A stretch of 23,582 bases of DNA from a virus (taxonomy: Duplodnaviria; Heunggongvirae; Uroviricota; Caudoviricetes). The stretch lies in the IMG/VR virus record IMGVR_UViG_2925908680_000008. One strand, given 5' to 3'. The position numbers and the translations under genes were made by a program. Under the pieces are notes generated by a model. It was not told the origin of the DNA, made no database searches, and saw only the letters and a list, made by a program, of their open reading frames with translations. Below, one piece after another: positions 1-20,983 of the stretch; position 1 is the stretch's first letter; every line of letters starts with the position of its first letter.

Positions 1-525
1 TTAATGGGATGATTTTTCCCACTCAGCCAGGGCGTTTAGTCCGGCTTCACTCCAGTTATCCAGCTCATCGGGACAATCACCTGCAACATAGCAGAGCTCA
101 CAACGCAGCATACGAATTGCCAGCCTGGCATTTTCCCGAAAATCATACTGCTCAAAGTAATATTGCCCAGCATAATCCTCAAGGCAGATAGCACCATCAT
201 CAAGAAATTGCACTTCACAGCATAGTTCCCCGGCTGCATCCTGCACACGCTGCTGTATGTCATCGTCCGTTACTGGTGCAGGGATTTTACCGTCTCTGGC
301 CTTAACTGCTTTCCAGAACTCGCCCCACGTCATTTCCAGCGTTCTCTCTGGCCACATTTCAGAAACGGTATCTTTTCCCTGTGCTGGTGGGCTGTTCCGC
401 TGCTCTGTCGCTTCCACATCGATTTTTTTACCGGACATGACCACTTCGCCTTTCTCGATCCAGTCGTAAACTGTCTGGCGGCTTACGCCTTTGTGTTTGG
501 CATATTCTGCCTTGCTCATAAACAT
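1..525 (-). CDS. HTH protein with small-terminase (Nu1/TerS-like) N-terminal domain; candidate packaging or packaging-redirection factor
   Basis: 174 aa; N-terminal MSKAEYAKHKGVSRQTVYDWIEKGEV resembles a TerS/Nu1-type winged HTH; GAGGGGAAG RBS upstream of ATG at 525; last gene of a minus-strand operon. Confidence 0.45.
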   Translation of the reverse strand: MFMSKAEYAKHKGVSRQTVYDWIEKGEVVMSGKKIDVEATEQRNSPPAQGKDTVSEMWPERTLEMTWGEFWKAVKARDGKIPAPVTDDDIQQRVQDAAGELCCEVQFLDDGAICLEDYAGQYYFEQYDFRENARLAIRMLRCELCYVAGDCPDELDNWSEAGLNALAEWEKSSH

Positions 526-5417: not shown

Positions 5418-5704
5418 TTCTTACCTCCCGCAACCAACATTGCTCGGATTTTTTTAATATTCGTGGCTGCACGTCTCGCCACCGCCTGTTGTTTGTTTTC
5501 CATCAGAATAAAATCACGATCAAACTGACGGCGCGGCATTACGCAGTCATATTCGTAAGCCTCACGGCGGTAGGTGATATTGCCTGGCGTAACGTGACGA
5601 ATAACCACTCGTCCCCCGCGTCTGGTGTCGCGGTAAATATCGCCGTGTCTGATTTCAGGCCGAGCGGGGCCGCTGGCAGTAAAGCCAGAATTTTTCTGTT
5701 TCAT
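5414..5704 (-). CDS. hypothetical basic protein (96 aa), coupled to replication gene
   Basis: ATG at 5704 with AGGAAAA RBS; stop overlaps start of downstream gene. Confidence 0.5.
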   Translation of the reverse strand: MKQKNSGFTASGPARPEIRHGDIYRDTRRGGRVVIRHVTPGNITYRREAYEYDCVMPRRQFDRDFILMENKQQAVARRAATNIKKIRAMLVAGGKK

Positions 5705-5708
5705 GGTT

Positions 5709-5909
5709 TTATTTTCCTGTCAGCAGTTCCGGTTTTATTTCCGCACGAATACAGAGTTCAGAAAAAAATTCAGGAGAACCAACAATCTCATTACTTTTCA
5801 GTCGGCATTGTGATTTCACTTTTCCTTTATCCAGGTAAACCAGTATGCGTCCGGTGAAATCATCTGGCGCACTCAGGGTAATTGTCATTGTTGCTTGCTG
5901 ATTATCCAT
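5709..5909 (-). CDS. hypothetical protein (66 aa)
   Basis: ATG overlaps upstream stop (ATGGATAA); tight operon arrangement. Confidence 0.45.
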   Translation of the reverse strand: MDNQQATMTITLSAPDDFTGRILVYLDKGKVKSQCRLKSNEIVGSPEFFSELCIRAEIKPELLTGK

Positions 5910-6267
5910 AATTCACCCCCTGAATAACCTGATAACCGCAACTGGTCAGCAATTCGATAAATTCCGGCAGTGTTCCGAAACAGCAATCATCTCGCAGCCG
6001 TTCTCGGGATACTTCAACGCCGTTTTCGTAGTGACTCACCATGCGTCCGGTAAAATGCAAATCATCATCGTGATGGCACGTTGACGGTTTAATCAGTCGC
6101 GCACGCTCTGCCAGTTCCAGCAATGCTTCAACACTTCCGGCAATTGCACCATCCGGCAGGTGGTAATTACGCACTATGCGCCCGTTCTCCACATGGACCA
6201 GTAGCTGCCCGGTAAATATCTCGTCAAACTGAATGCTGTTAAGGTCAGAAATTGACAGGTTATGCAT
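5902..6267 (-). CDS. hypothetical protein (121 aa)
   Basis: ATG at 6267 overlaps upstream stop (ATGCATAA). Confidence 0.5.
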   Translation of the reverse strand: MHNLSISDLNSIQFDEIFTGQLLVHVENGRIVRNYHLPDGAIAGSVEALLELAERARLIKPSTCHHDDDLHFTGRMVSHYENGVEVSRERLRDDCCFGTLPEFIELLTSCGYQVIQGVNYG

Positions 6268-6625
6268 GGTGCACCTCCTGGCGAATACGGGCAGCGAATA
6301 CCATCACGCAGCCATCAGGAGATTGCTGGCGTGCTTCCTGTTCGCTGGTGGCCTCGATGTGAATTACACGCGGTTGTGCCGTACTCAGGGCGATAAAACG
6401 CCAGATAAAATTGTTCTCGCATTTCTGAATAAACAGCGTGTTTTCTTCGCGCCCTTTCCATGTTGCCGAGATATAGCCCATGTCATTGAGCATCTCGCAG
6501 GCATCAACCAGCGTATCGGCGGCTACGTGTACAGTGTTTTTACCGTCAGCTATGCAATCACGGTGCACCGCCAGGAAGGTGTATATAAATTTAGGGTGAG
6601 TTTGGGTATGCTGTGTTCCAGCCAT
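6260..6625 (-). CDS. hypothetical protein (121 aa), first gene of replication operon
   Basis: ATG at 6625 (MAGTQHT...) with GAGGT RBS; E. coli-like codon usage, unlike the antisense read-through upstream. Confidence 0.5.
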   Translation of the reverse strand: MAGTQHTQTHPKFIYTFLAVHRDCIADGKNTVHVAADTLVDACEMLNDMGYISATWKGREENTLFIQKCENNFIWRFIALSTAQPRVIHIEATSEQEARQQSPDGCVMVFAARIRQEVHHA

Positions 6626-6812
6626 AATCGTTACCTCGTTTAACGGTTTGGTTAGACGCCCCGCTACTGCCGCAAACAGTTCGGGGCGTTGTCGTTTACA
6701 TCCTCTTACTGAGGTGTGATTTAAATTAAATTCAACTGAATCACAGGTCAAGTATTTTTTGTGATTCTTTTTTGTGTATACTGAATCACATCTTTTGTTT
6801 AGGAGAATGCAC
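6626..6812. promoter_or_regulatory. divergent promoter/operator region between replication operon and small regulator gene
   Basis: CTGAATCACA direct repeats at 6737-6746 and 6781-6790 with inverted TGTGATTC between; TATACT -10-like hexamer at 6777-6782; AGGAGA RBS at 6801-6806; 8-bp stem hairpin around 6650-6690. Confidence 0.5.
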
Positions 6813-7118
6813 ATGGCAAAAAACACTATCAACGACAAATCAAAACAGATTTCAATTCGTATCCCACATGATGCTTTTGATGGCATGGAATCCGTAAAAC
6901 TGGACGGCGAAAGCAACGCCGGATTCATAGTAACCGCCATGCGCGGTGAGATCGCCCGCCGCCAGGCAGAAGGAAGAGGAGAAAACCCCCTGGTTTCTTC
7001 GCTCGATGCACTGGCGCAGGTGGAAAAAATCGGTGTCAAAGCTGCCGAGGAGATCGGGCAACTCGTCACCGTCGCGCGTGAAGAACTCCAGCGACGCAAG
7101 GTCAAAGAGCAGGAATAG
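6813..7118 (+). CDS. putative ribbon-helix-helix DNA-binding regulator (candidate island repressor)
   Basis: 101 aa from ATG 6813 with AGGAGA RBS; ISIRIPHDAFDGMESVKL...NAGFIVTAMRGEIARR has a strand-helix-helix pattern; family assignment is by eye only. Confidence 0.45.
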   Translation: MAKNTINDKSKQISIRIPHDAFDGMESVKLDGESNAGFIVTAMRGEIARRQAEGRGENPLVSSLDALAQVEKIGVKAAEEIGQLVTVAREELQRRKVKEQE

Positions 7119-7175
7119 CCACTATCAGCGCCATAGTTTGAGGAACGCAGGCGCATTGCTTTACAGGACAGCACC

Positions 7176-7355
7176 ATGAGCGACACAGAATCAACCAAAA
7201 CACCATCACCAACTCGTAAGAGACGACGCAAAAATATAGCGCATGAACATGAATCAGAAAGATTCGCACCTTGTTCGTTTGCTCTTGAGAAATTCCTTAA
7301 AGAGCACAGGAAAAAGCTCTCGTTGCAAACCTTGGAACGAACCAAATCTGACTGA
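7176..7355 (+). CDS. small basic hypothetical protein (59 aa)
   Basis: ATG 7176, stop TGA 7353-7355; below ORF-track cutoff; RKRRRK basic patch. Confidence 0.3.
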   Translation: MSDTESTKTPSPTRKRRRKNIAHEHESERFAPCSFALEKFLKEHRKKLSLQTLERTKSD

Positions 7356-7756
7356 TCACATTGCCCACCAGCCGCAAATGTGGCATTGTTGGTGATGCGT
7401 TCAAGTTTGATTTGCCGTAATACCCACTGGCGACCCTCTGCGGTCGCCTTTGTTTTATCCAGAACGAAATCAGACATCAGATTGATCAGCACCTGGCGAC
7501 CTGACAAAATCGTATCGGTCGCGCCACCAGCAAAATTTTTTGCTTTCCGGACGATGTGGCCAACGGTATTTTGCAGCAAAATATTCTGCATTTCTGGCGT
7601 GCTGTGGCGACGGTGATCAGCGCCTTCACATTGAACGAACTTGTCGCTAAAATTCACCCACATAGCAAACATCGCGGTGCTGTAGGTAATTCGTTCACAA
7701 AGGCGCTCCGGCAACGGGGCGCTTTCTCTTTTTGTAACGGTCAGAGCGTTACACAT
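7355..7756 (-). CDS. hypothetical protein coupled to ant; 3' end undefined (no in-frame stop)
   Basis: ATG 7756 overlaps ant stop (ATGTGTAA) with GGAGGAAAA RBS; good codon usage for ~134 codons, then frame continues stop-free to 6260. Confidence 0.4.
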
Positions 7757-8549
7757 GGCTGTTTTCCTCCATGCGACGGGCTAACCAACGCTGCGAAAGA
7801 CGAATTAATTCAGCTTTCCGCTGGTGGTAGTCCTGGCCTAACTCAATCAGCGTGATATTGCTCCGCTCAAGGTAAGAAAGGTGCTCAAGCTGCAACGTGC
7901 TCATGTGGTCGCGTGGTTCACCTGTGATGCCGTTCGCCTGCGCCCACTGTTTTGCAGTCATGCCACCCAGCACGATACGCGCCAGCATATTGGCTTCCGT
8001 GGTGTAGTGGTGCTGTAGAGTGTTTTTACCCAGTTCAGTCCGGTACGCCTCCAGCGCGGCGCACATCGGCTTAAAGTAGCTGGCAACGGTGATACGGGCT
8101 TTCAGTTCCCTGCGTAACGCTGCGGAACGCACTGGCGCTACCTTGTGTAGCTCCTCCTCGCATTTGATGAAGTACTGACGAACGGCACGGCCCTGTTCGG
8201 TGCGTTCGACCATCGCCAGTTCTTTTGCCATGTTCACGGTGATGATGTACTCAAGAGCGGTTTGCTGGCGAGATTTTGCGCTCACCGGATCGGGTCGGCT
8301 CAAATATTCAACAACTTCATAATCCACGCCTTCCGTGAAGCCGTATTCTTCAATGCGCCCCTTGATCCACGAACGGAAAACGCGCCCTACACCTAACGCC
8401 TTATGCAACGCTCTGGCGCTAACAATATTGGTTTCACGCCCGCCAATAACGCCGGAAATAACCGGGATAATTTCGCCAAAATTTTGCAGATTCTGGTTTT
8501 CAGGCCGAACGAAGCCCTGCCCCTGTACGGGCGTTTTTCGCAGTTTCAT
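7749..8549 (-). CDS. phage antirepressor-like protein (AntA/Rha-like domain)
   Basis: 266 aa; TNIVSARALHKALGVGRVFRSWIKGRIEEYGFTEGVDYEV resembles the AntA/Rha antirepressor domain; AGGAG RBS. Confidence 0.6.
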   Translation of the reverse strand: MKLRKTPVQGQGFVRPENQNLQNFGEIIPVISGVIGGRETNIVSARALHKALGVGRVFRSWIKGRIEEYGFTEGVDYEVVEYLSRPDPVSAKSRQQTALEYIITVNMAKELAMVERTEQGRAVRQYFIKCEEELHKVAPVRSAALRRELKARITVASYFKPMCAALEAYRTELGKNTLQHHYTTEANMLARIVLGGMTAKQWAQANGITGEPRDHMSTLQLEHLSYLERSNITLIELGQDYHQRKAELIRLSQRWLARRMEENSHV

Positions 8550-8627
8550 AAAAACTCCTGCTATCGAATTAAGTTACTTTTATTTGCTGGTGGATAGCTG
8601 GGGGCTTCTGGCCCCGTAGCCATTTAA

Positions 8628-8825
8628 TCAGGTAGCTGTTCCGCGTGATTCAGCAATACGCTGATTAATCCACTCGTCAATTTCACTCTCAACGAAAGCA
8701 ATAGCTCGCGAGCCAATTTTAACTGATGCAGGAAATTTACCTTGCCCCATAAGGCGATAAATCCATGCCTTGCTATATCCAGTTCTACGCTGAACTTCTG
8801 TTAAACGAATAAGCGTATTTGACAT
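8628..8825 (-). CDS. alpA: AlpA-family (Phage_AlpA/Vis-like) transcriptional regulator/excisionase-type HTH protein
   Basis: 65 aa; IRLTEVQRRTGYSKAWIYRLMGQGKFP...ESEIDEWINQR aligns with the AlpA pattern. Confidence 0.85.
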   Translation of the reverse strand: MSNTLIRLTEVQRRTGYSKAWIYRLMGQGKFPASVKIGSRAIAFVESEIDEWINQRIAESRGTAT

Positions 8826-8893
8826 ATATTTACCTCATAACGTCTACTCAATTTGACGAGGTAATCCTGGCACAGAAATAACGAATATTTTCA

Positions 8894-9070
8894 TACCCTC
8901 AGGCCTAATGGTTACCGGAAGGAAATTAACCCTAAGGGTGATGGTAATCGGAAGGAAATTAACCCTAAGGGTGATGGTAATCGGGAGGAAATCTACCCTA
9001 AGGGTGATGGTAAAATTGACGGGGAAGATAAAAAAATACCCTCAGGGTAACAGTAAATCACCCTCAGGGT
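8894..9070. promoter_or_regulatory. operator-like repeat array upstream of alpA: three tandem 33-bp repeats plus two extra palindromic sites
   Basis: 33-bp units at 8908-8940, 8941-8973, 8974-9006; motif ACCCT-N-AGGGT at 8929-8939, 8962-8972, 8995-9005, 9038-9048, 9060-9070. Confidence 0.55.
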
Positions 9071-9085
9071 ATGCGGTATGGTGCG

Positions 9086-9883
9086 TTAATCCGGCTTTGC
9101 GTTCTTTTGGCTGTTGTCTCGGTTAATAGGGCAGGCAGTCCTCTCTATGAGCGTTGCAAGTGCATTACTTGCCCCCCACTGCTTAAGCTCCCTGGTTATC
9201 GCTTCTTGATTTCCCCTGGTGGCAAAATCATTTTCTGGATCGTAATTGGCCCACTCTCTGTTTCTAATCTCAATAGCCTTAGCTAATGGGTCTTTATCCC
9301 AGTATTTATATAAGTGTATCGGGCGCTCTTGCTCTAACTGCTCTATCCTTGCCCTTAACTCTGCGTTTTCTTTTTCCAGCATTGCGATTTGGGATAATAA
9401 ATCATCCTCTGTACGCAACTCTTTCTTTTCAATATCGCGTCCTTGTGCCTCGTCATTTTCAGAAGAGTTAGCGCCTTCCAGCTTCGTTAACGCGTCAAGG
9501 ACATCGGGAAAAATTGCGAAAATTTCACCCCTTATAAATCCAATGTTCTCAAATTCGGGATCTTCCCAATAACCGGACACCAGAAAACCATTTTCATCCC
9601 TCTCACCAGGTAAACAACCACGTTTCCGAACCGCATTCAGATTTCTATAAAGAACATCATAATCAAATTCATCCCGATACGGGTTACAAAAAGATTCCAA
9701 CAGCTTAAATTCATTTACTGTGTACAGGCGGATATGTTCTCCGCTTATTCTCCTGAGTATCCAAGTTATGACATCTGAAACATCATAATCATCACCAGCG
9801 ACCTTAAGCACGACCTCAAGAAATTCACGTAAAGAAATAAAATCTTTTTTGTATTCGTTTAATTCGGCATGAATATCAATCAT
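9086..9883 (-). CDS. uncharacterised cargo protein (265 aa) with central coiled-coil segment
   Basis: ATG 9883 with GAGGTG RBS (ORF track start at 9889 is GTG); appears AT-richer than neighbours by eye; LEKENAELRARIEQLEQER heptad-like stretch; no recognised catalytic motif. Confidence 0.55.
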   Translation of the reverse strand: MIDIHAELNEYKKDFISLREFLEVVLKVAGDDYDVSDVITWILRRISGEHIRLYTVNEFKLLESFCNPYRDEFDYDVLYRNLNAVRKRGCLPGERDENGFLVSGYWEDPEFENIGFIRGEIFAIFPDVLDALTKLEGANSSENDEAQGRDIEKKELRTEDDLLSQIAMLEKENAELRARIEQLEQERPIHLYKYWDKDPLAKAIEIRNREWANYDPENDFATRGNQEAITRELKQWGASNALATLIERTACPINRDNSQKNAKPD

Positions 9884-10011
9884 ACGCACACCTCAGCGTC
9901 CTCTACTGTAGTGGCTGTACCAGTCCGTCGAGGTGTACGGATTTTCGGGAGCGACCCTAGACACAGCCTTTTCTTTCGTCGCTCAAAGTCTACTACTGTA
10001 TACGCAACCAG

Positions 10012-11226
10012 TCATCCACATTTTCCGAACTTGCCATGCACCACGTTACCGCCATGCTCGAGCGAATCCATATAGTCGGCATACCACTGGAGCATCTCCC
10101 GGCGACCATCCAGATATTGCGCATGGTTGTATGTGCCACGAATTGAGTTTTTATCGACGTGTGCGAGCTGCGTCTCTATCCACGCGGTGTTATAGCCCTG
10201 CTCATGCAAAATGGTGCTCATGGTGTGCCGGAATCCATGACCAGTAACGCGCCCGGCATAGCCGATACGACGAATGAGCACATTCATCGCCATTTCACTC
10301 ATTGGCTTACTGTGGTGAATACGACCGGGGAAAATAAACTGATACTGGCCTGTCATGTTTTTTAACTGCTCCAGTATTTTTATTGCCTGTTCTGGTAATG
10401 GCACGCAATGCGGACGGCGCATCTTCATTCGTTCTTTAGGCACTTCCCACAAACGATTATCAAAATCGATCTCCTGCCATTCTGCCTGCCGTAATTCCCC
10501 GGGTCTGACACCTGTCAGAATTAATAGCCGCATTGCCAGTTTGACGATCTGGCTTCCGGTGTACGTATTAAAAACGCGGAAAAATTCCGGCAGTTCGTCG
10601 GCCTTCAAATAGGCGTAATGCTCTTTTTTATGTGGAGCAAATGCGCTCACCAGATCAGGGGCTGGATTATATTCGGCGCGTCCGGTGATGATTGCGTACC
10701 GGAACACCTCGCCGCATCGCTGGCGAACCTTACGCAATTTTTCAGTCGCACCACGGTCATTAAGACGGGAAAGAACCGCCAGCAATTCCATCGGCTTAAT
10801 TTCTGCGATCGGCCTACCGCCAATGTACGGAAAAACATCTTTTTCAAACGTCTCGATCATTTCCTCGGCGTATGACGATGACCACCTGTCGATCCGCTTT
10901 TCGTACCATTCGCGAGCAATACCCTCAAAAGTATTGCCAAATTTGCTCGCCTGTTCTCGCTTTTGGGCTTTTCTGGCCTCACTTGGATTTATACCACCAG
11001 CAAGAAGCCTTTTAGCCTCATCCCTTGCCGCCCTGGCATCAGACAGGGACACATCAGGGTACACACCCAACGACAACATTTTGGGCTTTCCTGCAAACCT
11101 GTAGCGCAGTCGCCACCCTTTCGAACCGTTCGGCTCAATGAGCAACGAAAGCCCGTTACCGTCATTGAGTGTATAAGCCTTTTCTTTCGGCTTCGCGCGC
11201 CTGATGGCAAGGTCTGAAAGCAGCAT
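10012..11226 (-). CDS. int: P4-type tyrosine integrase (site-specific recombinase)
   Basis: 404 aa from ATG 11226 with GGAG RBS; N-terminal LSDLAIRRAKPKEKAYTLNDGNGLSLLI... typical of P4-family integrases; C-terminal HGFRHT and Y-containing catalytic region. Confidence 0.9.
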   Translation of the reverse strand: MLLSDLAIRRAKPKEKAYTLNDGNGLSLLIEPNGSKGWRLRYRFAGKPKMLSLGVYPDVSLSDARAARDEAKRLLAGGINPSEARKAQKREQASKFGNTFEGIAREWYEKRIDRWSSSYAEEMIETFEKDVFPYIGGRPIAEIKPMELLAVLSRLNDRGATEKLRKVRQRCGEVFRYAIITGRAEYNPAPDLVSAFAPHKKEHYAYLKADELPEFFRVFNTYTGSQIVKLAMRLLILTGVRPGELRQAEWQEIDFDNRLWEVPKERMKMRRPHCVPLPEQAIKILEQLKNMTGQYQFIFPGRIHHSKPMSEMAMNVLIRRIGYAGRVTGHGFRHTMSTILHEQGYNTAWIETQLAHVDKNSIRGTYNHAQYLDGRREMLQWYADYMDSLEHGGNVVHGKFGKCG

Positions 11227-11873
11227 GTGTATAGCTCCAAAAAATAAATTTTGTCCTATACGCATTACTATACACTTCTGTGTGTAGATTCTGGTAGTTG
11301 TGAGTAGACGTTAATGAACTATGAAAATGGCTGGAAGACTTGATATTCGTGGGTTTGATGGACTTTAGTAGACGTTGAGAAATGTTTGTTTGGAGCGGGC
11401 GAAGGGAACAATACAACAAGCCACAAGACCAGTAGTAAAGGCACATTCGCGAGTTCTAAAATAGATTCTATACACATTTCTATACACATTTATCACTCGC
11501 TTGGGAATTACACATCCCCTGTTATCCGTGATCAAGCTGGTGGATGATCACGGATAACCGATATGGGAATCCCCATATCGGCATCGCGTAGTTAATCGTA
11601 GTGGCTACCGTAGTAGTTGAGTAGCAGGATGTAACCTGCCAGGAAGGAAATGATCGGTCGTAACTCGCCACCACCAGCCACAGAACGCAAATTTGCGTCG
11701 TCGGATATATCAACAACTTAGCACAAAAATAAGTCAGGCAGATACAAACCTCAAATTTGAGGTTTGCTTGTTTATCAACGGGTAAGGATAATCATCTCCC
11801 CTTTAAAGTCCCTTCGAAGGGTTACCCGTAGGCTTAATGTAAGGCTTGGCTGTAGCCTTACCGAACGCTCCGC
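11227..11873. other. int-upstream / att-proximal region with direct repeats and perfect palindromes (att core not identified)
   Basis: CTATAC(A/G)C repeats at 11266-11290 and 11466-11492; AGTAGACGTT twice; 14-bp-arm inverted repeat 11521-11558; 10-bp-arm palindrome 11558-11581; 22-bp perfect palindrome 11745-11766. Confidence 0.4.
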
Positions 11874-12053
11874 TCACCGTCGCGGCCTGTCCGGTTTCTT
11901 CCACTGATACGGCCTCACATCATCCTGCTGGTGGCGTTCCTGTTGCAGCACAACGGAAACAGGCGCTGAACACCTGTTAATTTTGCTTGCAGGTTGTTTG
12001 ATTCCGGCAATGCTGCGGATCATCTCCAGCATATCGGCTTCGGTGATGGTCAT
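11874..12053 (-). CDS. small hypothetical protein (59 aa) in junction
   Basis: Hand-translated: ATG 12053 with AAGGTG RBS, stop TGA 11874-11876; MTITEADMLEMIRSIAGIKQ...; not in ORF track (under 60 aa). Confidence 0.35.
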   Translation of the reverse strand: MTITEADMLEMIRSIAGIKQPASKINRCSAPVSVVLQQERHQQDDVRPYQWKKPDRPRR

Positions 12054-12079
12054 GATTTACACCTTAGGAAATCTTAGGG

Positions 12080-12345
12080 GCTGGTTGACACTTTCCGGCT
12101 TAAGACCTTAACAAATCTTAACATCGCAGGTTGACACACTTGACACTTTTTCGCGAAAAACCTTATCAAACCTTAGCATTTCTAAGCATGGCAACTTGAC
12201 ACTTTTCGCGATTTTTTCGGCTTTTTGACGTGGTAAATCTGGCGCAAAGCCAGTAACGGCGGGGTTTACAGCGAGGTTGACACTTTTTCGCGTTCAGAGT
12301 GTAAAGTGTCAACCCGGCAGACGGCCTGACTTGACACTTTTCGCG
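12080..12345. repeat. array of TTGACAC(TTTTCGCG) repeats between small junction ORF and TerS-like gene 3' end
   Basis: TTGACAC at 12085, 12131, 12140, 12196, 12277, 12331 plus inverted GTGTCAA at 12306; four copies share TTGACACTTTT(T)CGCG. Confidence 0.6.
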
Positions 12346-12358: not shown

Positions 12359-12883
12359 TTAATGGGATGATTTTTCCCACTCAGCCAGGGCGTTTAGTCC
12401 GGCTTCACTCCAGTTATCCAGCTCATCGGGACAATCACCTGCAACATAGCAGAGCTCACAACGCAGCATACGAATTGCCAGCCTGGCATTTTCCCGAAAA
12501 TCATACTGCTCAAAGTAATATTGCCCAGCATAATCCTCAAGGCAGATAGCACCATCATCAAGAAATTGCACTTCACAGCATAGTTCCCCGGCTGCATCCT
12601 GCACACGCTGCTGTATGTCATCGTCCGTTACTGGTGCAGGGATTTTACCGTCTCTGGCCTTAACTGCTTTCCAGAACTCGCCCCACGTCATTTCCAGCGT
12701 TCTCTCTGGCCACATTTCAGAAACGGTATCTTTTCCCTGTGCTGGTGGGCTGTTCCGCTGCTCTGTCGCTTCCACATCGATTTTTTTACCGGACATGACC
12801 ACTTCGCCTTTCTCGATCCAGTCGTAAACTGTCTGGCGGCTTACGCCTTTGTGTTTGGCATATTCTGCCTTGCTCATAAACAT
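12359..12883 (-). CDS. TerS-like HTH protein (copy 2)
   Basis: Identical 174-aa translation to 1-525. Confidence 0.45.
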   Translation of the reverse strand: MFMSKAEYAKHKGVSRQTVYDWIEKGEVVMSGKKIDVEATEQRNSPPAQGKDTVSEMWPERTLEMTWGEFWKAVKARDGKIPAPVTDDDIQQRVQDAAGELCCEVQFLDDGAICLEDYAGQYYFEQYDFRENARLAIRMLRCELCYVAGDCPDELDNWSEAGLNALAEWEKSSH

Positions 12884-13053
12884 GACACTTCCCCTCAGAC
12901 TGTATTAATGCGCCGGAAAGCGCGTGTATTTAAATCATCCCAGGAACCGTTGAGCACCAATTAGTTGCGCGAAGTAATCGGCACCAGCGTTCCGAACAAT
13001 TTCCAACTTAACGTTCTGATCATTGTTTCCTGCTGCAGGGACAATCCCACGAT

Positions 13054-13706
13054 TCATAGCCAGCGCCCGGATATTTCTTCCAGTTTTTCCAGAGCTGGCT
13101 TGCAGGCCGCATCAATAACTTCACGGACCATTCCGGCGAGCTGTTCTTCTTCTGTCGGCGTTGTTACTTCCACACCTGATGGTTTCCCGCCCTTATCCCA
13201 TACGCCCAACGGTACGAGCGCAACGTGATCGATAAGAAATGGCGTACCCTCAATGAAAAATTGTCCTCGCCCATTACATCAGGAACTTCTGCCCCACCGG
13301 ACGCACCACAAAACACAACCGACGGGCTGGTGGATACCTCCCCCCGTGCTTTCTGGATGTAATCGATGATTTCCTGCCCGTAAATCCGGCATACGCCCCA
13401 CACCTCGTCACCGCGAATATACGGCAACATGACGGTGCCAATAATGCGCGACCGTTCGCCCACGTCTTCAAGGGTTTTGCTTTCGGGATGGTCGATAATG
13501 ACGGGTACTCCGGCGCAACGTTCCAGGAACTGCGGATTGAGATAAGTTTGCGGTGAACGCCAGACAAATTCTTTTTCTTCGGCGCGATAGGCCATTCCGG
13601 TTCCTGTGATACGCAGGTTAATCAGCCACATGTTGGAAAACTGATAAGGCGACGGTAGCTGACCGTCCCGAATCTGCTTTGCCGCCTCAATTTCTGTTAA
13701 AAGCAT
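13054..13706 (-). pseudogene. frameshifted copy of the 217-aa hypothetical gene (A5 instead of A6 at 13256-13260)
   Basis: ORF track gives 180 aa (13164-13706) with divergent C-terminus after MGEDNF; copy 1 has A6 at 898-903. Confidence 0.5.
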
Positions 13707-13770
13707 AATGTCCCCCGGTTATAAGCAATAAGCCCCACCAAATCCGGCAGGGCTGAAATCAGCACGTTTT

Positions 13771-14355
13771 TCATGCCCCCGCGAGGCTTGCAACGTTAAT
13801 TTTAACCAGGCGACGGGGAGGGATTTTGAAAGCACTAAGCCAGTTATTCGGATCCCCCTGATATTCAGTAATCCGCCGTCCGGCTTCATCCATTCTTACG
13901 GTTTTACGCAAATAGCCCGGCGTATTTTCCACAGCCCACTGAACACTGTCTTTTGCAGCCTGGTAAATCTGATCTTCCAGCACCGCCAGCGTTGCAGAAT
14001 CTGAAACGGAACGAATATCCACATCACTGAATTTTTTAGCCAGCTTCTGTGCACCAATTAATGCACGCTTGCGGTAATCCATCGACTTTTCACCAGCAAA
14101 CGGGGCTGGAGCGCGACGGCCCATATTGCTGTATGCGGAATCCGCTTTAGCCTGGGCTTCTGCCAGTGAGGATTCATCTTCGACTGACGCGACGATGTTT
14201 TTATTCGCGTCATCCTCGTCCGCTTTTGTGAAATCCTGTGCGGGGATCGCATTCAGAATTTCGATAATCTCCTGCGGAGTGCTGCCCTGCGACTCTGACA
14301 GAGCGTTAACCACCTCCATCAGTTTTAATCGCAAATCTTCTTTGCTTGCTGGCAT
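13771..14355 (-). CDS. hypothetical acidic protein (194 aa), copy 2
   Basis: Identical to 1414-1998; upstream A-run difference is outside the CDS. Confidence 0.5.
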   Translation of the reverse strand: MPASKEDLRLKLMEVVNALSESQGSTPQEIIEILNAIPAQDFTKADEDDANKNIVASVEDESSLAEAQAKADSAYSNMGRRAPAPFAGEKSMDYRKRALIGAQKLAKKFSDVDIRSVSDSATLAVLEDQIYQAAKDSVQWAVENTPGYLRKTVRMDEAGRRITEYQGDPNNWLSAFKIPPRRLVKINVASLAGA

Positions 14356-14393
14356 TTTTACCACCTCTCTTTTTTCACCAAAAATCACGACCA

Positions 14394-14573
14394 TCAGGCC
14401 GGACGTTCTACGGGATAAAGCGCCCGCTGCATTAAACGCCGGGCGACCTCATGAATGCTCGGAGCAATCCCCAGCGGAGAATTGCGGCGTTCCTCGTCCT
14501 GGATGCGCTGTAATGCTTCAATCTGATCACGAGCGAGTAAAACGGGTTTCACGCTGGCTTTTCTCATAGTCAT
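14394..14573 (-). CDS. small hypothetical protein (59 aa), copy 2
   Basis: Duplicate of 2038-2217. Confidence 0.4.
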   Translation of the reverse strand: MTMRKASVKPVLLARDQIEALQRIQDEERRNSPLGIAPSIHEVARRLMQRALYPVERPA

Positions 14574-14735
14574 ATCTCCTGAACAAAACAATGATTATGA
14601 TTGCACAAACTGAAATAACGATCTACATCATTGCAATTTATGAAACAATAACGCATGATGATCGCGTTCTTCCCATTGACTTCAATCACCTGAAAAACAA
14701 AGCCCGCAACACTTCTGGCTGCGGGTTTTTTACTG

Positions 14736-14763
14736 GCACAAAAAAGCCGGGAAAAATCCCGGC
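14736..14763 (-). terminator. intrinsic terminator after PerC-family gene, copy 2
   Basis: Duplicate of 2380-2407. Confidence 0.6.
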
Positions 14764-14768
14764 CTCCG

Positions 14769-15056
14769 TCACTGACTGCAATTTTTCGATCCAGGGTATT
14801 TCCTGAATGCCTTACCATTGGGCTGATGTAATCCCATCCCGGCATGTGCCCGGCTGATGGTTTCGCGCATTTCCCCGAAATTATCCTGCCTTGCTGGTGG
14901 GCGTGCTGCCTTGCGGATACATTCCGCGCGACGTTTTGCCGCCTGTTCCCGTGCCTTGTCATCATTCGCCAGCATGATGACCTCAGCCCACCGCGCCGCC
15001 GCTCTCCGGTACAGACCACGCGCTTCCAGTGCTTCCGCTTTGCTGTCGTGAATCAT
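14769..15056 (-). CDS. PerC-family transcriptional regulator, copy 2
   Basis: Duplicate of 2413-2700. Confidence 0.65.
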   Translation of the reverse strand: MIHDSKAEALEARGLYRRAAARWAEVIMLANDDKAREQAAKRRAECIRKAARPPARQDNFGEMRETISRAHAGMGLHQPNGKAFRKYPGSKNCSQ

Positions 15057-15583
15057 GCGCCTGTTTTCTCCTTTGCTGCCCGGCGCTGACGTTTGCGCTT
15101 CTCATTCAGCGCCACCAGCCGCGTTTCTGCGTCCTGTTGTTCCTGTGGTGTCACCTCGCCGCACGGCTGGCCTTTCAGGTCGTAGCGTACCCCACCAGCC
15201 ATTAAGGCGCGGTAATAGCGCGGACACTGCGCATAAGATGCCAGCGTCGCACGCAATGCCCCTGGACCGAATGCCAGCCCCCTGACGGCGAGATCCTGCA
15301 TCAGGTCGTCGAATATCCCCACCTTAAGCGGCTTCGGTGCTTCCCGGCTGAATAATTCAGGCCACAACTCAGTGAGGCGGTTAACGCGCCTGCGGTTTTT
15401 GCGCTGGCGTTTGGTCATATGCCGCCACGGTGTCGCCCCTGTGGGCTTCTGCTGCGCTTTCTGGTTACCGGGCATCACTTTATGCGCCGATGTGGTTTTA
15501 TCCTGCTCCTGCGCCGCCTGCGTCGTTTTCTGCGGCGTGCCGTAAATGCCTTTCGGTTTTCTGTTAATGGTCAGCTTAGTCAT
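15053..15583 (-). CDS. ProQ/FinO-domain RNA-binding protein, copy 2
   Basis: Duplicate of 2697-3227. Confidence 0.8.
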   Translation of the reverse strand: MTKLTINRKPKGIYGTPQKTTQAAQEQDKTTSAHKVMPGNQKAQQKPTGATPWRHMTKRQRKNRRRVNRLTELWPELFSREAPKPLKVGIFDDLMQDLAVRGLAFGPGALRATLASYAQCPRYYRALMAGGVRYDLKGQPCGEVTPQEQQDAETRLVALNEKRKRQRRAAKEKTGA

Positions 15584-15595
15584 GCTTTGCTCCAT

Positions 15596-15967
15596 CGTTA
15601 CAACTGTCTACCAACTGTCCACCGATATAATTTATTGATTTATTTGATATTATTTACACATAACTAAAAAATAACCTATCAATTGTCTACCAACTGTCTA
15701 CCGCATTAATACATTGATAATTAATGATTTTTTCAAAATGGTAGACAGAGTAGACAGTTAAAAGAGAAATTTTAAAAATGAACCCTTAACTATCTGTTTT
15801 TTTATATACCCCCCGTGGTTTAGGAATATAGAAACAACTGTCCACTCTCTACCACATTTAAAAATATCTATACAATTCAATGCATTAATTGGTAGATGGT
15901 TGGTAGAGGATTAAGTATTACTGTCTACCAACCGTCTACCTTTACGTTTCAGCTCATAAATTTCGTA
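15596..15967. repeat. iteron-type replication origin, copy 2
   Basis: Duplicate of 3240-3611. Confidence 0.7.
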
Positions 15968-17773
15968 TTATGTTCTGTCGTTAATCCCTGTTGCTGCTGG
16001 CAACCAGCTATCAGCATCATCATCTAACAGAACATTTGTTATCACTCGCCCTTTATCCTGGCCTTTAGTGCATTTAGCCCGCTTATACTCCTTTCCGTAT
16101 TCCGCCATAGCACCAGGCATATCAGTGCCAAAGCGTTTCAGTGATACTGGTTTTCCCAGACCATGCGCTGACATATAGGCTAAATAAGCATGATACAGAT
16201 ATCGCCTCGGGCTAAATGGCACTATTCCCGCATTGCCCACCATCATTCCTTCACATTTAACCAACGACATCAGATAGCCGCAAAAGTCCACCAGTGAATC
16301 ACCCTCACGTTTTATCATCAGAGCCTCTTCTGATTTCTGCTGCTCATATAACAGACGTCTGGCTTCATCCTGGTCAGAAAAACGAGTAAGCAGGTGGCGA
16401 ATAACTACCGCCAGTTCGCCTTCTATTTTTTCCACCAGCATGGGATCGCGTTCGTTCTCCGGTACGACCTCAGAGAAATTAAATATCACCCTACGACGCG
16501 AGATCCCCCCGCTTCGGTCACTGAATGACATGGCGTTATTGTTTACTGCCAGCACTACCGCCGGAATACGAGTGGAGTATGGGGCTTTATGTTTCGGGTC
16601 GATCGCCACCTTGTCACCACCAGTAATTGCCTTAATTCCTGCACCATCTCCAGCGTAGCGGGCCATATCCGGCATGATAATCAGCGAAAAGCCAACGACT
16701 AACGCGCGTTCCCTTGCGTCTTCCAGCGCCTTCATGCTTGCCGATACTGTATTGACCTTACCCGCCAGCATGGTACAAATCTCCGCCATCACACTTTTAC
16801 CGCTTCCGCCCGGCCCCGTTACCTCAAGGAATAACTGCCAGTCGTACCGGTTCGCCAGTACCATGAATAATGCCGCCAGTACGCGATCTGCTTTACGATC
16901 GTTATTTGCCACCGAACGACGCAGCCACTTCCAGAAATTCGGCGCATGTGTTGCCAGCGTTTCCCCCTCTGCTGGTGGGCTGAACGGTAATTCACTGGCA
17001 TTTAACAACCAGTCATTTTTGTTATGCTCCCGAAAATTTCCTGTCCGGGTATCAAATACCCCGTTACTGAATCCAATAAGATTCCTGTCTGCCCCGCCCA
17101 TAACAGGCAGGCTCAATTTCATTGTGTCTACGGCAAATTTAATGGCGTTTTGCGAATAACTGATTCCAGCATCAATAAAAATCTTCGCCATAGATCGCTG
17201 GAGTTCCTTATCAGATACAGGCTCCCAGACAATTCCGTTGTAATGGTGAACTACATCAGAATCGTCATTTATAGCCAGTGCCCTTCCATAATATTCAAGC
17301 AATACTTCCCCTCTCTGGCTGGCTCCCATCTGATTTAGTGCTGGCCTGGGTAGGTCACTATTTTTTGTGACTAATTTCATCGCTGAAACTTCCCCGCGCT
17401 CTGCCTGTTCGCGGATCCGTTGCAGGTAATCGCGCCAGTTCTCCGGCTCCCGGTCGGTGATGCCTTTGTATAATTTCGCCTCCTGTACGCCAGCCAGTGC
17501 CAGTTTTTCAGCGATAGTATTGATCTGGATTGGCTCTATCTCCCCCGCGAGATAGACACGCGCAAAGCGGCGTTCATCGTCGACAATGCGGATATTCGCC
17601 AGGTCTGCCAGTTGCTTTGGCCCCAGATAAACAGGTGGCACGTTATCGCCGTGTTTTCGTCCTTCGCTTTCAATCCAGTGTTGAGCATGGGAGTAAGCGT
17701 CCGTCCCGGCAAAAATGATTACCTCAGTGAATTTATCCTTCGGCTGATATTTCAAATTCGGTGCGTTTTTCAC
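15968..17773 (-). CDS. replication initiation primase/helicase-like protein, copy 2
   Basis: Duplicate of 3612-5417. Confidence 0.75.
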   Translation of the reverse strand: MKNAPNLKYQPKDKFTEVIIFAGTDAYSHAQHWIESEGRKHGDNVPPVYLGPKQLADLANIRIVDDERRFARVYLAGEIEPIQINTIAEKLALAGVQEAKLYKGITDREPENWRDYLQRIREQAERGEVSAMKLVTKNSDLPRPALNQMGASQRGEVLLEYYGRALAINDDSDVVHHYNGIVWEPVSDKELQRSMAKIFIDAGISYSQNAIKFAVDTMKLSLPVMGGADRNLIGFSNGVFDTRTGNFREHNKNDWLLNASELPFSPPAEGETLATHAPNFWKWLRRSVANNDRKADRVLAALFMVLANRYDWQLFLEVTGPGGSGKSVMAEICTMLAGKVNTVSASMKALEDARERALVVGFSLIIMPDMARYAGDGAGIKAITGGDKVAIDPKHKAPYSTRIPAVVLAVNNNAMSFSDRSGGISRRRVIFNFSEVVPENERDPMLVEKIEGELAVVIRHLLTRFSDQDEARRLLYEQQKSEEALMIKREGDSLVDFCGYLMSLVKCEGMMVGNAGIVPFSPRRYLYHAYLAYMSAHGLGKPVSLKRFGTDMPGAMAEYGKEYKRAKCTKGQDKGRVITNVLLDDDADSWLPAATGINDRT

Positions 17774-18060
17774 TTCTTACCTCCCGCAACCAACATTGCT
17801 CGGATTTTTTTAATATTCGTGGCTGCACGTCTCGCCACCGCCTGTTGTTTGTTTTCCATCAGAATAAAATCACGATCAAACTGACGGCGCGGCATTACGC
17901 AGTCATATTCGTAAGCCTCACGGCGGTAGGTGATATTGCCTGGCGTAACGTGACGAATAACCACTCGTCCCCCGCGTCTGGTGTCGCGGTAAATATCGCC
18001 GTGTCTGATTTCAGGCCGAGCGGGGCCGCTGGCAGTAAAGCCAGAATTTTTCTGTTTCAT
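17770..18060 (-). CDS. hypothetical basic protein (96 aa), copy 2
   Basis: Duplicate of 5414-5704. Confidence 0.5.
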   Translation of the reverse strand: MKQKNSGFTASGPARPEIRHGDIYRDTRRGGRVVIRHVTPGNITYRREAYEYDCVMPRRQFDRDFILMENKQQAVARRAATNIKKIRAMLVAGGKK

Positions 18061-18064
18061 GGTT

Positions 18065-18265
18065 TTATTTTCCTGTCAGCAGTTCCGGTTTTATTTCCGC
18101 ACGAATACAGAGTTCAGAAAAAAATTCAGGAGAACCAACAATCTCATTACTTTTCAGTCGGCATTGTGATTTCACTTTTCCTTTATCCAGGTAAACCAGT
18201 ATGCGTCCGGTGAAATCATCTGGCGCACTCAGGGTAATTGTCATTGTTGCTTGCTGATTATCCAT
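18065..18265 (-). CDS. hypothetical protein (66 aa), copy 2
   Basis: Duplicate of 5709-5909. Confidence 0.45.
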   Translation of the reverse strand: MDNQQATMTITLSAPDDFTGRILVYLDKGKVKSQCRLKSNEIVGSPEFFSELCIRAEIKPELLTGK

Positions 18266-18623
18266 AATTCACCCCCTGAATAACCTGATAACCGCAACTG
18301 GTCAGCAATTCGATAAATTCCGGCAGTGTTCCGAAACAGCAATCATCTCGCAGCCGTTCTCGGGATACTTCAACGCCGTTTTCGTAGTGACTCACCATGC
18401 GTCCGGTAAAATGCAAATCATCATCGTGATGGCACGTTGACGGTTTAATCAGTCGCGCACGCTCTGCCAGTTCCAGCAATGCTTCAACACTTCCGGCAAT
18501 TGCACCATCCGGCAGGTGGTAATTACGCACTATGCGCCCGTTCTCCACATGGACCAGTAGCTGCCCGGTAAATATCTCGTCAAACTGAATGCTGTTAAGG
18601 TCAGAAATTGACAGGTTATGCAT
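18258..18623 (-). CDS. hypothetical protein (121 aa), copy 2
   Basis: Duplicate of 5902-6267. Confidence 0.5.
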   Translation of the reverse strand: MHNLSISDLNSIQFDEIFTGQLLVHVENGRIVRNYHLPDGAIAGSVEALLELAERARLIKPSTCHHDDDLHFTGRMVSHYENGVEVSRERLRDDCCFGTLPEFIELLTSCGYQVIQGVNYG

Positions 18624-18981
18624 GGTGCACCTCCTGGCGAATACGGGCAGCGAATACCATCACGCAGCCATCAGGAGATTGCTGGCGTGCTTCCTGTTCG
18701 CTGGTGGCCTCGATGTGAATTACACGCGGTTGTGCCGTACTCAGGGCGATAAAACGCCAGATAAAATTGTTCTCGCATTTCTGAATAAACAGCGTGTTTT
18801 CTTCGCGCCCTTTCCATGTTGCCGAGATATAGCCCATGTCATTGAGCATCTCGCAGGCATCAACCAGCGTATCGGCGGCTACGTGTACAGTGTTTTTACC
18901 GTCAGCTATGCAATCACGGTGCACCGCCAGGAAGGTGTATATAAATTTAGGGTGAGTTTGGGTATGCTGTGTTCCAGCCAT
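18616..18981 (-). CDS. hypothetical protein (121 aa), copy 2
   Basis: Duplicate of 6260-6625. Confidence 0.5.
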   Translation of the reverse strand: MAGTQHTQTHPKFIYTFLAVHRDCIADGKNTVHVAADTLVDACEMLNDMGYISATWKGREENTLFIQKCENNFIWRFIALSTAQPRVIHIEATSEQEARQQSPDGCVMVFAARIRQEVHHA

Positions 18982-19168
18982 AATCGTTACCTCGTTTAAC
19001 GGTTTGGTTAGACGCCCCGCTACTGCCGCAAACAGTTCGGGGCGTTGTCGTTTACATCCTCTTACTGAGGTGTGATTTAAATTAAATTCAACTGAATCAC
19101 AGGTCAAGTATTTTTTGTGATTCTTTTTTGTGTATACTGAATCACATCTTTTGTTTAGGAGAATGCAC

Positions 19169-19474: not shown

Positions 19475-19531
19475 CCACTATCAGCGCCATAGTTTGAGGA
19501 ACGCAGGCGCATTGCTTTACAGGACAGCACC

Positions 19532-20905: not shown

Positions 20906-20983
20906 AAAAACTCCTGCTATCGAATTAAGTTACTTTTATTTGCTGGTGGATAGCTGGGGGCTTCTGGCCCCGTAGCCATTTAA

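What the first reader, a model, noticed from the sequence alone, without database searches (positions are those of the whole stretch)
12080..12345. Array of TTGACAC(TTTTCGCG) repeats next to the TerS-like gene
Six direct and one inverted copy of TTGACAC lie within about 270 bp between the small junction ORF and the 3' end of the TerS-like gene, four with the extended consensus TTGACACTTTT(T)CGCG. They do not resemble the origin iterons or the alpA operator. They could be a packaging recognition site (cosB/pac-like) for the adjacent terminase-like HTH protein, or stacked -35-like elements; function unknown.
Basis: seen in the sequence. Interest (0 to 1): 0.5.

Follow-up and report, generated by a model that had tools for sequence, protein, structure and literature searches.

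The report
Repeat array beside satellite DNA-binding gene
A conserved cluster of short DNA repeats beside a small DNA-binding-protein gene, at the far end of a phage-parasitic island of E. coli, is most likely that protein's docking array and the island's "package me" signal; this would be an undescribed variant of a known piracy trick, and it has not been tested experimentally.

Summary
Six direct copies and one inverted copy of TTGACAC lie in 12085-12337, four of them extended to TTGACACTTTT(T)CGCG. The window as a whole holds 9 copies against 2.9 expected.

The window is two tandem, near-identical copies of a ~12.36-kb PICI-type phage satellite related to EcCICFT073.

The real motif is (G/C)TT(G/T)ACACTTT. 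It sits in a composite array together with CTTAnCA doublets, a TTTTTCGCGAAAAA palindrome and a central box CCAGTAACGGCGGGGTTTACAGC.

The adjacent 174-aa protein has a strongly conserved N-terminal winged helix-turn-helix of the lambda Nu1 / Rpp / excisionase fold. Its C-terminal domain is rare and variable. It is not a true small terminase.

In eight lineages chosen only by protein homology (36-63% identity), the same motif clusters just downstream of the gene, about 55-fold enriched. A second protein type that shares only the helix-turn-helix has the array just upstream of its gene.

In EcCICFT073 the syntenic place holds rppA and a cos site.

Best reading (confidence 0.5): this is the cognate binding array of the helix-turn-helix protein and serves as a cosB/pac-like packaging-specificity site. 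No lambda or P2 cleavage site and no helper phage were found. The stacked -35 reading is not supported, because there are no usable -10 elements. I rate it a new variant of a known kind.

The parts
12083..12094 (+). A box 1, GGTTGACACTTT. It lacks the CGCG tail and is the least conserved copy within the E. coli group.
12129..12137 (+). A box 2, a degenerate copy (GGTTGACAC followed by AC), 9 bp before A box 3.
12139..12155 (+). A box 3, CTTGACACTTTTTCGCG. It runs into the palindrome TTTTTCGCGAAAAA (12147-12160).
12195..12210 (+). A box 4, CTTGACACTTTTCGCG.
12275..12292 (+). A box 5, GGTTGACACTTTTTCGCG. It forms a perfect 12-bp inverted pair with A box 6 (16-bp spacer).
   Evidence: (I2)
12303..12314 (-). 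A box 6, the inverted copy (AAAGTGTCAACC on the + strand).
12330..12345 (+). A box 7, CTTGACACTTTTCGCG, 14 bp from the stop codon of the HTH gene.
12061..12079 (+). B box 1, ACCTTAGGAAATCTTAGGG: two CTTAGG units 11 bp apart.
   Evidence: (D5)
12105..12124 (+). B box 2, ACCTTAACAAATCTTAACAT.
   Evidence: (D1, D2, D5)
12160..12189 (+). B box 3, ACCTTATCAAACCTTAGCATTTCTAAGCAT. The same CCTTAGCATTTCTTAGCAT box recurs in Enterobacter and other lineages.
12250..12272 (+). Central box CCAGTAACGGCGGGGTTTACAGC, in the 81-bp gap between A4 and A5. It is conserved as CCAGYAAY...GCAG in distant lineages. It is a candidate cleavage site or accessory-factor site (inference only).
12359..12883 (-). Gene for the 174-aa protein. 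Its N-terminal Nu1/Rpp/Xis-type winged HTH (residues ~1-45) is the presumed A-box binder. Its C-terminal alpha/beta domain has unknown function.
1..525 (-). The same gene in the other tandem copy. Its array lies beyond the left edge of the window.
11874..12053 (-). 59-aa ORF downstream of the array. It is a shortened homolog of the 93-aa ORF that follows cos2 in EcCICFT073. In relatives this side is replaced by variable defence-like cargo.

Best explanation
The array is the cognate multi-site docking region for the N-terminal winged helix-turn-helix of the adjacent 174-aa protein. Together they form the packaging-specificity module of this PICI-type satellite.

Proposed mechanism: after induction, the late operon makes the 174-aa protein. 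Its Nu1/Rpp-like domain occupies the A boxes. These are four copies to the left and a +/-/+ triplet to the right of an ~80-bp core that holds the conserved central box. This marks replicated satellite DNA. The variable C-terminal domain then recruits a helper phage's terminase, either directly or through the helper's small subunit as Rpp does. The helper's large terminase then cuts in or near the array and packages satellite DNA.

Shown here: the repeats; their conservation; their exclusive association with this HTH type; the fold; and the positional equivalence to rppA/cos in EcCICFT073.

Inferred: actual binding, terminase recruitment, the cleavage position and the helper's identity.
For: 1. 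Unbiased association. In eight lineages picked only by protein homology (Pantoea, Serratia x2, Enterobacter x3, Rouxiella, Raoultella; 36-63% identity), 28 A boxes lie in the 5.6 kb just downstream of the gene, against 5 in the other 54.8 kb. Three of those five are an array displaced by an inserted gene.

2. Co-conservation. Residues Y8, A9, S15, R16, Q17, Y20, W22, K34, I35 and D36 of the HTH are invariant while the C-terminus falls to ~20-35% identity. The DNA motif is likewise constant.

3. A second protein type (194-209 aa; L065, L098, L109, L111) shares only the HTH and has 7-8 A boxes immediately upstream of its start codon, an arrangement like lambda cosB-Nu1.

5. Context. The element shares int, alpA, the 498-aa protein, DUF4222, primase, PerC and the small ORF with EcCICFT073. 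There the equivalent slot is cos1-rppA-cos2-small ORF, and the cos sites and RppA have been shown experimentally to direct packaging (PMC6739421, PMC6092414).

6. Mutual exclusivity. There is no lambda cosN (up to 1 mismatch) or P2 cos (up to 3 mismatches) in 759 kb of loci carrying the module, apart from one 1-mismatch lambda cosN match lying inside an HTH gene (L046). There are no A boxes in EcCICFT073.

7. The module moves as a unit. An identical copy sits on two PICIs with different int and primase genes in one strain.

8. The architecture is conserved across lineages: the B-A-B-A order, the central box, and a +/-/+ triplet with ~25-28 bp spacing next to the gene end.
Against: - No recognisable cleavage site was found. 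The window has no lambda cosN better than 3 mismatches, at chance frequency. The central box occurs only in the satellites themselves among 2.9 million viral contigs, and has no significant match in 50,697 phage genomes.
- No helper was identified. Neither the array nor the protein matches any deposited phage.
- The protein lacks any terminase-like oligomerisation or TerL-binding domain, and its C-terminal domain has no phage relatives.
- Similarity to RppA is limited to 29 residues (hhalign probability 24%).
- In the window the array lies downstream of the gene, unlike lambda and cos1.
- Metagenomic contig ends do not pile up in the array.
- The same fold is equally typical of transcription regulators and excisionases.
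Confidence: 0.5

Rival explanations
1. The array is a transcriptional operator array. The HTH protein would act as a Cox/BldC-like regulator that coats the array to repress or activate neighbouring genes: the small ORF and defence-like cargo in the window type, or its own gene in the L109 type. It could also act as a roadblock that insulates the cargo from late-operon read-through.
For: The fold matches P2 Cox, BldC and MerR-like regulators as well as it matches TerS domains. The array lies at the border between the conserved core and variable defence-like cargo: DUF4747, AAA+DUF4435, SIR2, SieB and Abi. In the second protein type the array is directly upstream of the gene, as expected for autoregulation. 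Some RefSeq records name the protein a MerR family regulator.
Against: No credible sigma-70 promoter lies in or beside the array on either strand. The gene on the far side of the array varies in identity and orientation, or is missing (SIR2 is convergent in L006; there is no small ORF in L004-L006), so there is no constant regulated target. Spacings of 9-81 bp over 260 bp, with extra conserved boxes, are atypical for a simple operator. A module kept at the end of the morphogenesis/late operon, where EcCICFT073 has its cos/rpp, fits packaging better.
Confidence: 0.25
2. The A boxes are bound by some other factor, from the helper phage or the host, and their adjacency to the HTH gene is only linkage. 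For example, they could be a recognition site for the helper's own small terminase, or for a late activator that the satellite copies.
For: Binding has not been shown. Unrelated phage contigs (L018, L036, L047, L056, L094; terminase + SU10-type portal) carry 15-16 copies of AAGTGTMAA between their late and early modules with no Nu1-like HTH nearby. A different protein therefore can apparently use this word.
Against: The array and the central box are absent from deposited phage genomes. Wherever this particular HTH type occurs, the array is next to it, in two different gene orders and on different backbones. The invariance of the recognition-helix residues parallels the invariance of the motif.
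Confidence: 0.1
3. The array consists of recombination-directionality (excisionase) sites or replication iterons of the island.
Against: The array is ~700 bp from the att junction here (the element's end is at window 11390). In relatives it is separated from that end by cargo of variable size, so it cannot be a fixed part of an intasome. The origin is accounted for by iterons flanking an AT-rich stretch just after the primase gene (3245-3346). The module also occurs with different replication genes (D5-type, DUF927).
Confidence: 0.06
4. The array is a cluster of sigma-70 promoters (stacked -35 hexamers), or a chance or slippage repeat with no function.
For: TTGACA is the consensus -35 hexamer. 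One copy has TTGACA-19-TAAAGT.
Against: No copy has a -10 with the required A2/T6 at 16-18 bp. Transcription from the + strand would run antisense into a convergent gene. The motif, its order and its orientation pattern are conserved down to 36% protein identity, which rules out chance.
Confidence: 0.03

Closest known systems
Rpp / cosB system of E. coli PICI EcCICFT073 (Fillol-Salom et al. 2018, 2019; PMC6092414, PMC6739421)
   Same: Both are in the same class of island. Homologs of int, alpA, the 498-aa protein, DUF4222, primase, PerC and the small terminal ORF are shared. In both, a small protein with a Nu1-like N-terminal winged HTH is the last gene of the late operon, flanked by an island-specific recognition region and followed by the same small ORF. 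The HTH aligns with RppA residues 7-35, including the positions equivalent to R21/T22, which that paper showed to be needed for cos1 recognition.
   Different: Outside the HTH there is no detectable homology to Rpp; the C-terminal domain is a different alpha/beta fold. There is no lambda-type cosQ/cosN, so lambda and phi80 are unlikely helpers. The recognition region here is an explicit array of 7 repeats plus other boxes, whereas no repeat elements were defined in the EcCICFT073 cosB. Here the array lies downstream of the gene.
Lambda cosB (R3, R2, R1 elements bound by gpNu1, with IHF site I1)
   Different: The repeat sequence is different. There is no adjacent cosN, no large terminase gene, and the protein has no terminase C-terminal half. 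The position is at the 3' end rather than the 5' end of the gene (the second protein type, L109, does have the 5' arrangement).
P1 pac site (two clusters of hexamer repeats flanking the cleavage region) and SPP1 pacL/pacR (own knowledge)
   Same: Two repeat clusters (4 + 3 copies) bracket an ~80-bp core that contains a separately conserved box.
   Different: This is a resemblance of layout only. There are no GATC/Dam sites in the repeats, the proteins are unrelated, and cleavage has not been shown.
Excisionase/Cox/BldC-type nucleoprotein filaments on tandem repeats
   Same: The DNA-binding fold is the same, and both bind multiple direct repeats, some abutting (9-bp spacing at 12131/12140).
   Different: The sites are not contiguous or helically phased, are not at a fixed distance from att, and are not at an identifiable promoter.

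Membership tests
Rpp-type packaging redirection module of Gram-negative PICIs | Carried by a PICI with the int-alpA-primase backbone, at the distal end of the late operon. | tested here: met
   Pfam and tblastn show the backbone and synteny with EcCICFT073. The homologous small ORF follows the array.
Rpp-type packaging redirection module of Gram-negative PICIs | The protein is homologous to RppA/B/C over its whole length. | tested here: not met
Rpp-type packaging redirection module of Gram-negative PICIs | A lambda-like cosQ/cosN lies next to the island-specific cosB. | tested here: not met
   The window has no GGGCGGCGACCT match better than 3 mismatches, at chance frequency. In 759 kb of related loci the only match at up to 1 mismatch is one inside an HTH gene (L046). 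EcCICFT073 has two perfect copies.
Rpp-type packaging redirection module of Gram-negative PICIs | The protein heterodimerises with the helper's TerS and redirects packaging. | not testable with these tools
   This needs two-hybrid or pull-down assays and transfer assays. The helper is unknown.
Lambda-type cosB | Multiple R elements recognised by a Nu1-fold winged HTH encoded next to them. | tested here: inconclusive
   The repeats and the fold are present, and they co-occur in 12 lineages. Binding itself was not tested.
Lambda-type cosB | Adjacent nicking site (cosN) and terminase large-subunit gene. | tested here: not met
   No cosN. No terminase domain in any ORF of the element.
Terminase small subunit (TerS) proper | An oligomerisation or TerL-binding region beyond the DNA-binding domain, with terminase family matches. 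| tested here: not met
   Only residues 1-42 match phrog_57. The C-terminal domain resembles dsRBD-like alpha/beta folds. It has only 36 relatives, all of the same small architecture.
Excisionase (RDF) binding sites | Sites lie in an att arm at a short, fixed distance from the crossover core. | tested here: not met
   The distance is ~700 bp from the junction at 11390 here, and variable cargo is inserted between array and end in relatives.
Sigma-70 promoter cluster | A -35 hexamer paired with a -10 hexamer at 16-18 bp. | tested here: not met
   The scans found none within the array.
Replication-origin iterons | Iterons flank an AT-rich region next to the initiator gene and co-vary with it. | tested here: not met
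   The origin-like iterons are at 3245-3346, after the primase gene. The array travels with the HTH gene across different replication modules.

The most novel reading that the evidence does not exclude
The HTH + A-box array may be a portable, helper-independent 'address label' cassette of Enterobacterales satellites. Under this reading, one conserved DNA-binding domain and one conserved DNA word mark the satellite genome. Interchangeable C-terminal adaptor domains (at least three types seen here) would plug that label into the terminases of quite different helpers, including non-lambda cos or headful phages. This would generalise the Rpp principle beyond lambda-like helpers. It would also explain how islands classed as lacking a packaging module are mobilised.
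Probability: 0.3. Interest if true: 0.65.

Novelty: new variant of a known kind. Interest (0 to 1): 0.5.

Why it matters
Many Gram-negative PICIs are scored as incomplete because no packaging determinant can be recognised; this is discussed for EcCIMP1 in PMC11773190. If this module is a packaging label, three things follow. First, it gives a sequence signature, (G/C)TT(G/T)ACACTTT arrays next to an MLMSKAxYAKHxGVSRQTVYDW-type HTH, for finding such islands and their ends. Second, it points to helpers other than lambda and phi80. Third, it offers a compact cis/trans pair for engineering phage-mediated delivery of DNA. The array also marks the boundary of a hotspot that carries defence-like cargo, so it is a practical anchor for mining that cargo.

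Tried and rejected
- Lambda cosN: searched in the window with up to 3 mismatches; chance-level matches only.
- Lambda cosN and P2 cos in 66 related loci: none relevant.
- BLAST of the array, the central box and both HTH proteins against 50,697 phage genomes: nothing significant.
- IUPAC scan of 2.9 million viral contigs for the central box: only the satellites themselves.
- Rfam on the region: nothing.
- tRNA scan: none in the window.
- PDB sequence searches with the protein and with a family profile: no Nu1 or Rpp hit.
- BFVD fold search: only small HTH/excisionase matches, none significant.
- Profile search with the C-terminal domain against 1.84 billion representatives, to look for a helper TerS with the same domain: only 36 clusters, all the same small architecture.
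- Extending locus L065 to see the whole contig: the same locus was returned.
- Looking for contig ends piling up in the array as a sign of cos termini, in IMG/VR and metagenome contigs: no consistent ends. Breaks fall in the variable cargo instead.
- Literature searches for this variant: none found.
- PHROG annotation of neighbours in L126, L124, L009, L008 and L109: uninformative.
- The phage contigs with 15-16 AAGTGTMAA copies (L018 group) were considered as possible helpers. They were set aside because their putative small terminase has no Nu1-like HTH and nothing else links them to the satellites.

Full report
THE OBSERVATION

TTGACAC occurs nine times in the window, and seven of those lie between 12085 and 12337: six on the + strand and one inverted at 12306-12312. 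The expectation from shuffles is 2.94 +/- 1.70, and none of 100 shuffles reached nine. Four copies carry the extension TTGACACTTTT(T)CGCG, at 12140, 12196, 12277 and 12331. The array fills the 305-bp gap between a 59-aa ORF (11874-12053, - strand) and the stop codon of a 174-aa ORF (12359-12883, - strand).

The repeat finder also showed that the region is built from a degenerate ~55-bp unit containing a second motif. I call this the B box: two CTTAnCA units about one helical turn apart, at 12061-12079, 12105-12124 and 12160-12189. It also found a 14-bp palindrome TTTTTCGCGAAAAA (12147-12160) and a perfect 12-bp inverted pair, GGTTGACACTTT-N16-AAAGTGTCAACC (12275-12314).

WHAT THE WINDOW IS

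Positions 1-11226 repeat at 12359-23582 with 99.98% identity. The only differences are one A in each of two A-runs. The window is therefore two head-to-tail copies of a ~12.36-kb element, and the array appears once only because the window is cut.

All genes are on the - strand. In order they are:
- integrase (10012-11265);
- a 267-aa ORF;
- AlpA (8628-8825);
- an AntA-like protein;
- a 498-aa protein with a repressor-like C-terminus;
- DUF4222;
- a D5-type primase/helicase (3612-5417), followed by origin-like iterons around an AT-rich stretch (3245-3346);
- ProQ/FinO;
- a PerC-like ORF;
- two ORFs matching one phage family (DUF2213, head-protease-like);
- the 174-aa HTH protein.

A single copy sits at a tRNA-Gly gene in E. 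coli cq9, which puts the element's far end at window 11390.

This is a phage-inducible chromosomal island (PICI). It shares homologs of int, alpA, the 498-aa protein, DUF4222, primase, PerC and the small terminal ORF with the experimentally studied EcCICFT073.

THE MOTIF AND ITS PARTNER

The 174-aa protein has homologs only in Enterobacterales (70 clusters).

I fetched loci for eight lineages chosen purely by protein similarity (36-63% identity): Pantoea, Serratia x2, Enterobacter x3, Rouxiella and Raoultella. In seven of them the same word clusters within a few hundred bp downstream of the gene. In the eighth the array is displaced 1.6 kb by an inserted gene. Counting TT[GT]ACAC[AT]T on both strands gives 28 copies in the 5.6 kb immediately downstream, against 5 in the remaining 54.8 kb. 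Three of those 5 are the displaced array. The enrichment is about 55-fold.

Seventy instances from 12 lineages give the consensus (G)(G/C)TT(G/T)ACACTTT(T). The CGCG tail is partly lineage-specific.

The larger architecture is conserved as well:
- the order B box - A box - B box - A box;
- a central box, CCAGTAACGGCGGGGTTTACAGC here (12250-12272), seen as CCAGYAAY...GCAG elsewhere, lying in the longest gap;
- a +/-/+ triplet of A boxes next to the gene end, with ~25-28 bp between the last two.

In the protein alignment, the first ~42 residues (MLMSKAxYAKHxGVSRQTVYDWIxKGEVVMSGxKIDVEATE) are nearly invariant, with S15, R16, Q17, Y20 and W22 absolute. The rest diverges strongly, and the cysteines of the E. 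coli protein are not conserved. An invariant DNA word therefore goes with an invariant recognition domain.

A scan of viral contigs for two A boxes 20-50 bp apart gave 106 loci.
- About 55 carry a 174-aa-type homolog with the array.
- A second group (L020, L065, L098, L109, L111) encodes a different 194-209-aa protein that shares only the N-terminal HTH (48% identity over residues 2-39; phrog_57). It has 7-8 A boxes directly upstream of its start codon. L109 has a primase 76% identical to the window's, so this too is a PICI of the same class. In L065 and L111 the block abuts myophage tail genes or P2-like early genes, and the flanks differ between loci. This fits a satellite end lying next to prophages rather than a phage gene.

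The pairing 'this HTH type plus an A-box array' thus holds in two gene orders and on several backbones. Within one strain, an identical HTH+array module sits on two PICIs with different integrase and primase genes.

WHAT KIND OF PROTEIN IT IS

Sequence matches are confined to the N-terminus: HTH_17 (below Pfam's cut-off), and phrog_57 'terminase small subunit' at E = 4.8e-7 over residues 1-42.

A confident AlphaFold model (mean pLDDT 88.8) has two parts: a winged HTH, and after a disordered linker, an alpha/beta domain.

A profile of the C-terminal domain found just 36 clusters among 1.84 billion representatives. All are small proteins of the same build, and none is a terminase.

The gene is therefore 'TerS-like' only in its DNA-binding domain.

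WHY PACKAGING IS THE BEST READING

In EcCICFT073 the corresponding end of the island reads: cos1 (perfect lambda cosN at L123 17559-17570) - rppA (144 aa) - cos2 (inverted cosN at 18298-18309) - a 93-aa ORF. The window's 59-aa ORF is a shortened homolog of that 93-aa ORF (E = 2e-6).

RppA has a Nu1-like DNA-binding domain. It pairs with the helper's TerS, and it makes terminase recognise the island's own cosB instead of the phage's. R21 and T22 in its recognition helix are required (PMC6739421). The window protein's HTH aligns to RppA residues 7-35 over just that stretch.

The window element thus has, in the same slot of the same kind of island, a different small protein with the same kind of DNA-binding domain, plus a dedicated repeat array.

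The two solutions exclude one another in my sample. There is no lambda or P2 cos in 759 kb of loci with the module (apart from one 1-mismatch lambda cosN match inside an HTH gene, L046), and there are no A boxes in EcCICFT073.

The layout also resembles other packaging sites, though these are analogies of layout and not homology. Lambda cosB has mixed-orientation R elements spread over 100-200 bp. The P1 pac site has repeat clusters on both sides of the cut region (my own knowledge).

WHAT IS MISSING

- I found no cleavage site. The central box is the obvious candidate, but it occurs only in the satellites and has no significant counterpart in deposited phages.
- No helper could be named.
- Contig ends in IMG/VR and metagenomes do not accumulate in the array. 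They fall in the variable cargo, as expected from strain heterogeneity.
- The fold is shared with regulators and excisionases, so a regulatory role is a serious rival.

RIVAL READINGS

Regulatory operator array. In its favour, the array sits at the edge of a hotspot whose content changes between relatives: DUF4747, AAA+DUF4435, SIR2, SieB, Abi. Against it, there is no credible promoter on either strand, and the neighbouring gene is not constant in identity or orientation.

Excisionase sites. This is excluded by the variable, long distance to att.

Origin iterons. The origin is elsewhere, and the module travels with different replication genes.

Stacked -35 elements. These lack -10 partners.

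A different binding protein. A separate group of phage contigs with 15-16 AAGTGTMAA copies and no such HTH shows the word can occur in another context. I could not connect those contigs to the satellites.

VERDICT

The cis/trans pairing is strongly supported by comparative evidence (my estimate ~0.8). The packaging role is a reasoned inference (overall ~0.5).
- 'TerS-like' is an overstatement, and the promoter alternative is not supported.
- I found no description of this module in the searchable literature.
- I class it as a new variant of a known kind, namely Rpp/cosB-type packaging specificity of Gram-negative PICIs. It is of moderate interest and directly testable.

Noticed in passing
window 1-11226 vs 12359-23582; differences at 903 and 2028 (copy 1) = 13261 and 14385 (copy 2): The window is two tandem copies of the island that differ only by one A in two A6/A7 runs. 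In copy 2 this frameshifts the DUF2213 gene (13054-13706 versus the intact 696-1349) and alters the start of the next ORF. It could be homopolymer sequencing error or real slippage. The junction 11266-11505 is an attP-like joint, which a 14.5-kb metagenome contig (L132) also contains. The source may therefore be excised or concatemeric island DNA rather than a chromosomal tandem.
   Followed up: partly
window 3245-3346 and 8908-9013 (also 15601-15702, 21264-21369): Origin-like iterons (CAACTGTCCAC / CTACCAACTGT) flank an AT-rich ATTTATTTG run just after the primase gene. Three 33-bp tandem repeats lie upstream of alpA, overlapping a 72-aa + strand ORF. Neither is related to the A boxes.
   Followed up: no
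L002-L006, left of the array (e.g. L004 176-1159, L006 1-1167); hits H15-H25: Immediately beyond the array, related E. coli islands carry different cargo: DUF4747, an RNA-binding-domain protein, AAA ATPase + DUF4435, SIR2, SieB, Abi. This is a defence-gene hotspot bounded by the array on one side and the att end on the other.
   Followed up: partly
L123 (E. coli CFT073, NC_004431.1) 18164, 18193, 18252: Between rppA and cos2 of EcCICFT073 there are three copies of ATGTCCGGTT (two direct, one inverted). They are possible R-like elements of cos2 that I have not seen described.
   Followed up: no
L018 11150-11950 (also L036, L047, L056, L094): Phage contigs with a large terminase and an SU10-type portal have 15-16 copies of AAGTGTMAA, interleaved with TTAAGGCAG...CTGCCTTAA hairpins and an AT-rich stretch, between the late and early gene blocks. 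No Nu1-like HTH is nearby. The function and any relation to the satellites' motif are unknown.
   Followed up: partly
L001 (cq9, tRNA-Gly) and L128 (cq9, abgR/smrA): One E. coli strain carries two PICIs with different integrase and primase genes but a 100% identical HTH + array + small-ORF end. This indicates modular exchange of that end.
   Followed up: partly
L065 7724-9300, L111 7443-10472, L124 5486-6234, L126 5401-6516: Satellites carrying the module often lie directly against prophage genes: myophage sheath/tube, P2-like cII and gpA, Exc/YdaT, Baseplate_J. They may share attachment sites with, or be embedded in, possible helpers.
   Followed up: partly
window 2697-3239 and 2413-2700: The island encodes a ProQ/FinO-domain protein (E = 8e-24) and a PerC-like regulator between the origin and the morphogenesis-like genes. 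Both are conserved in Serratia relatives (L009).
   Followed up: no
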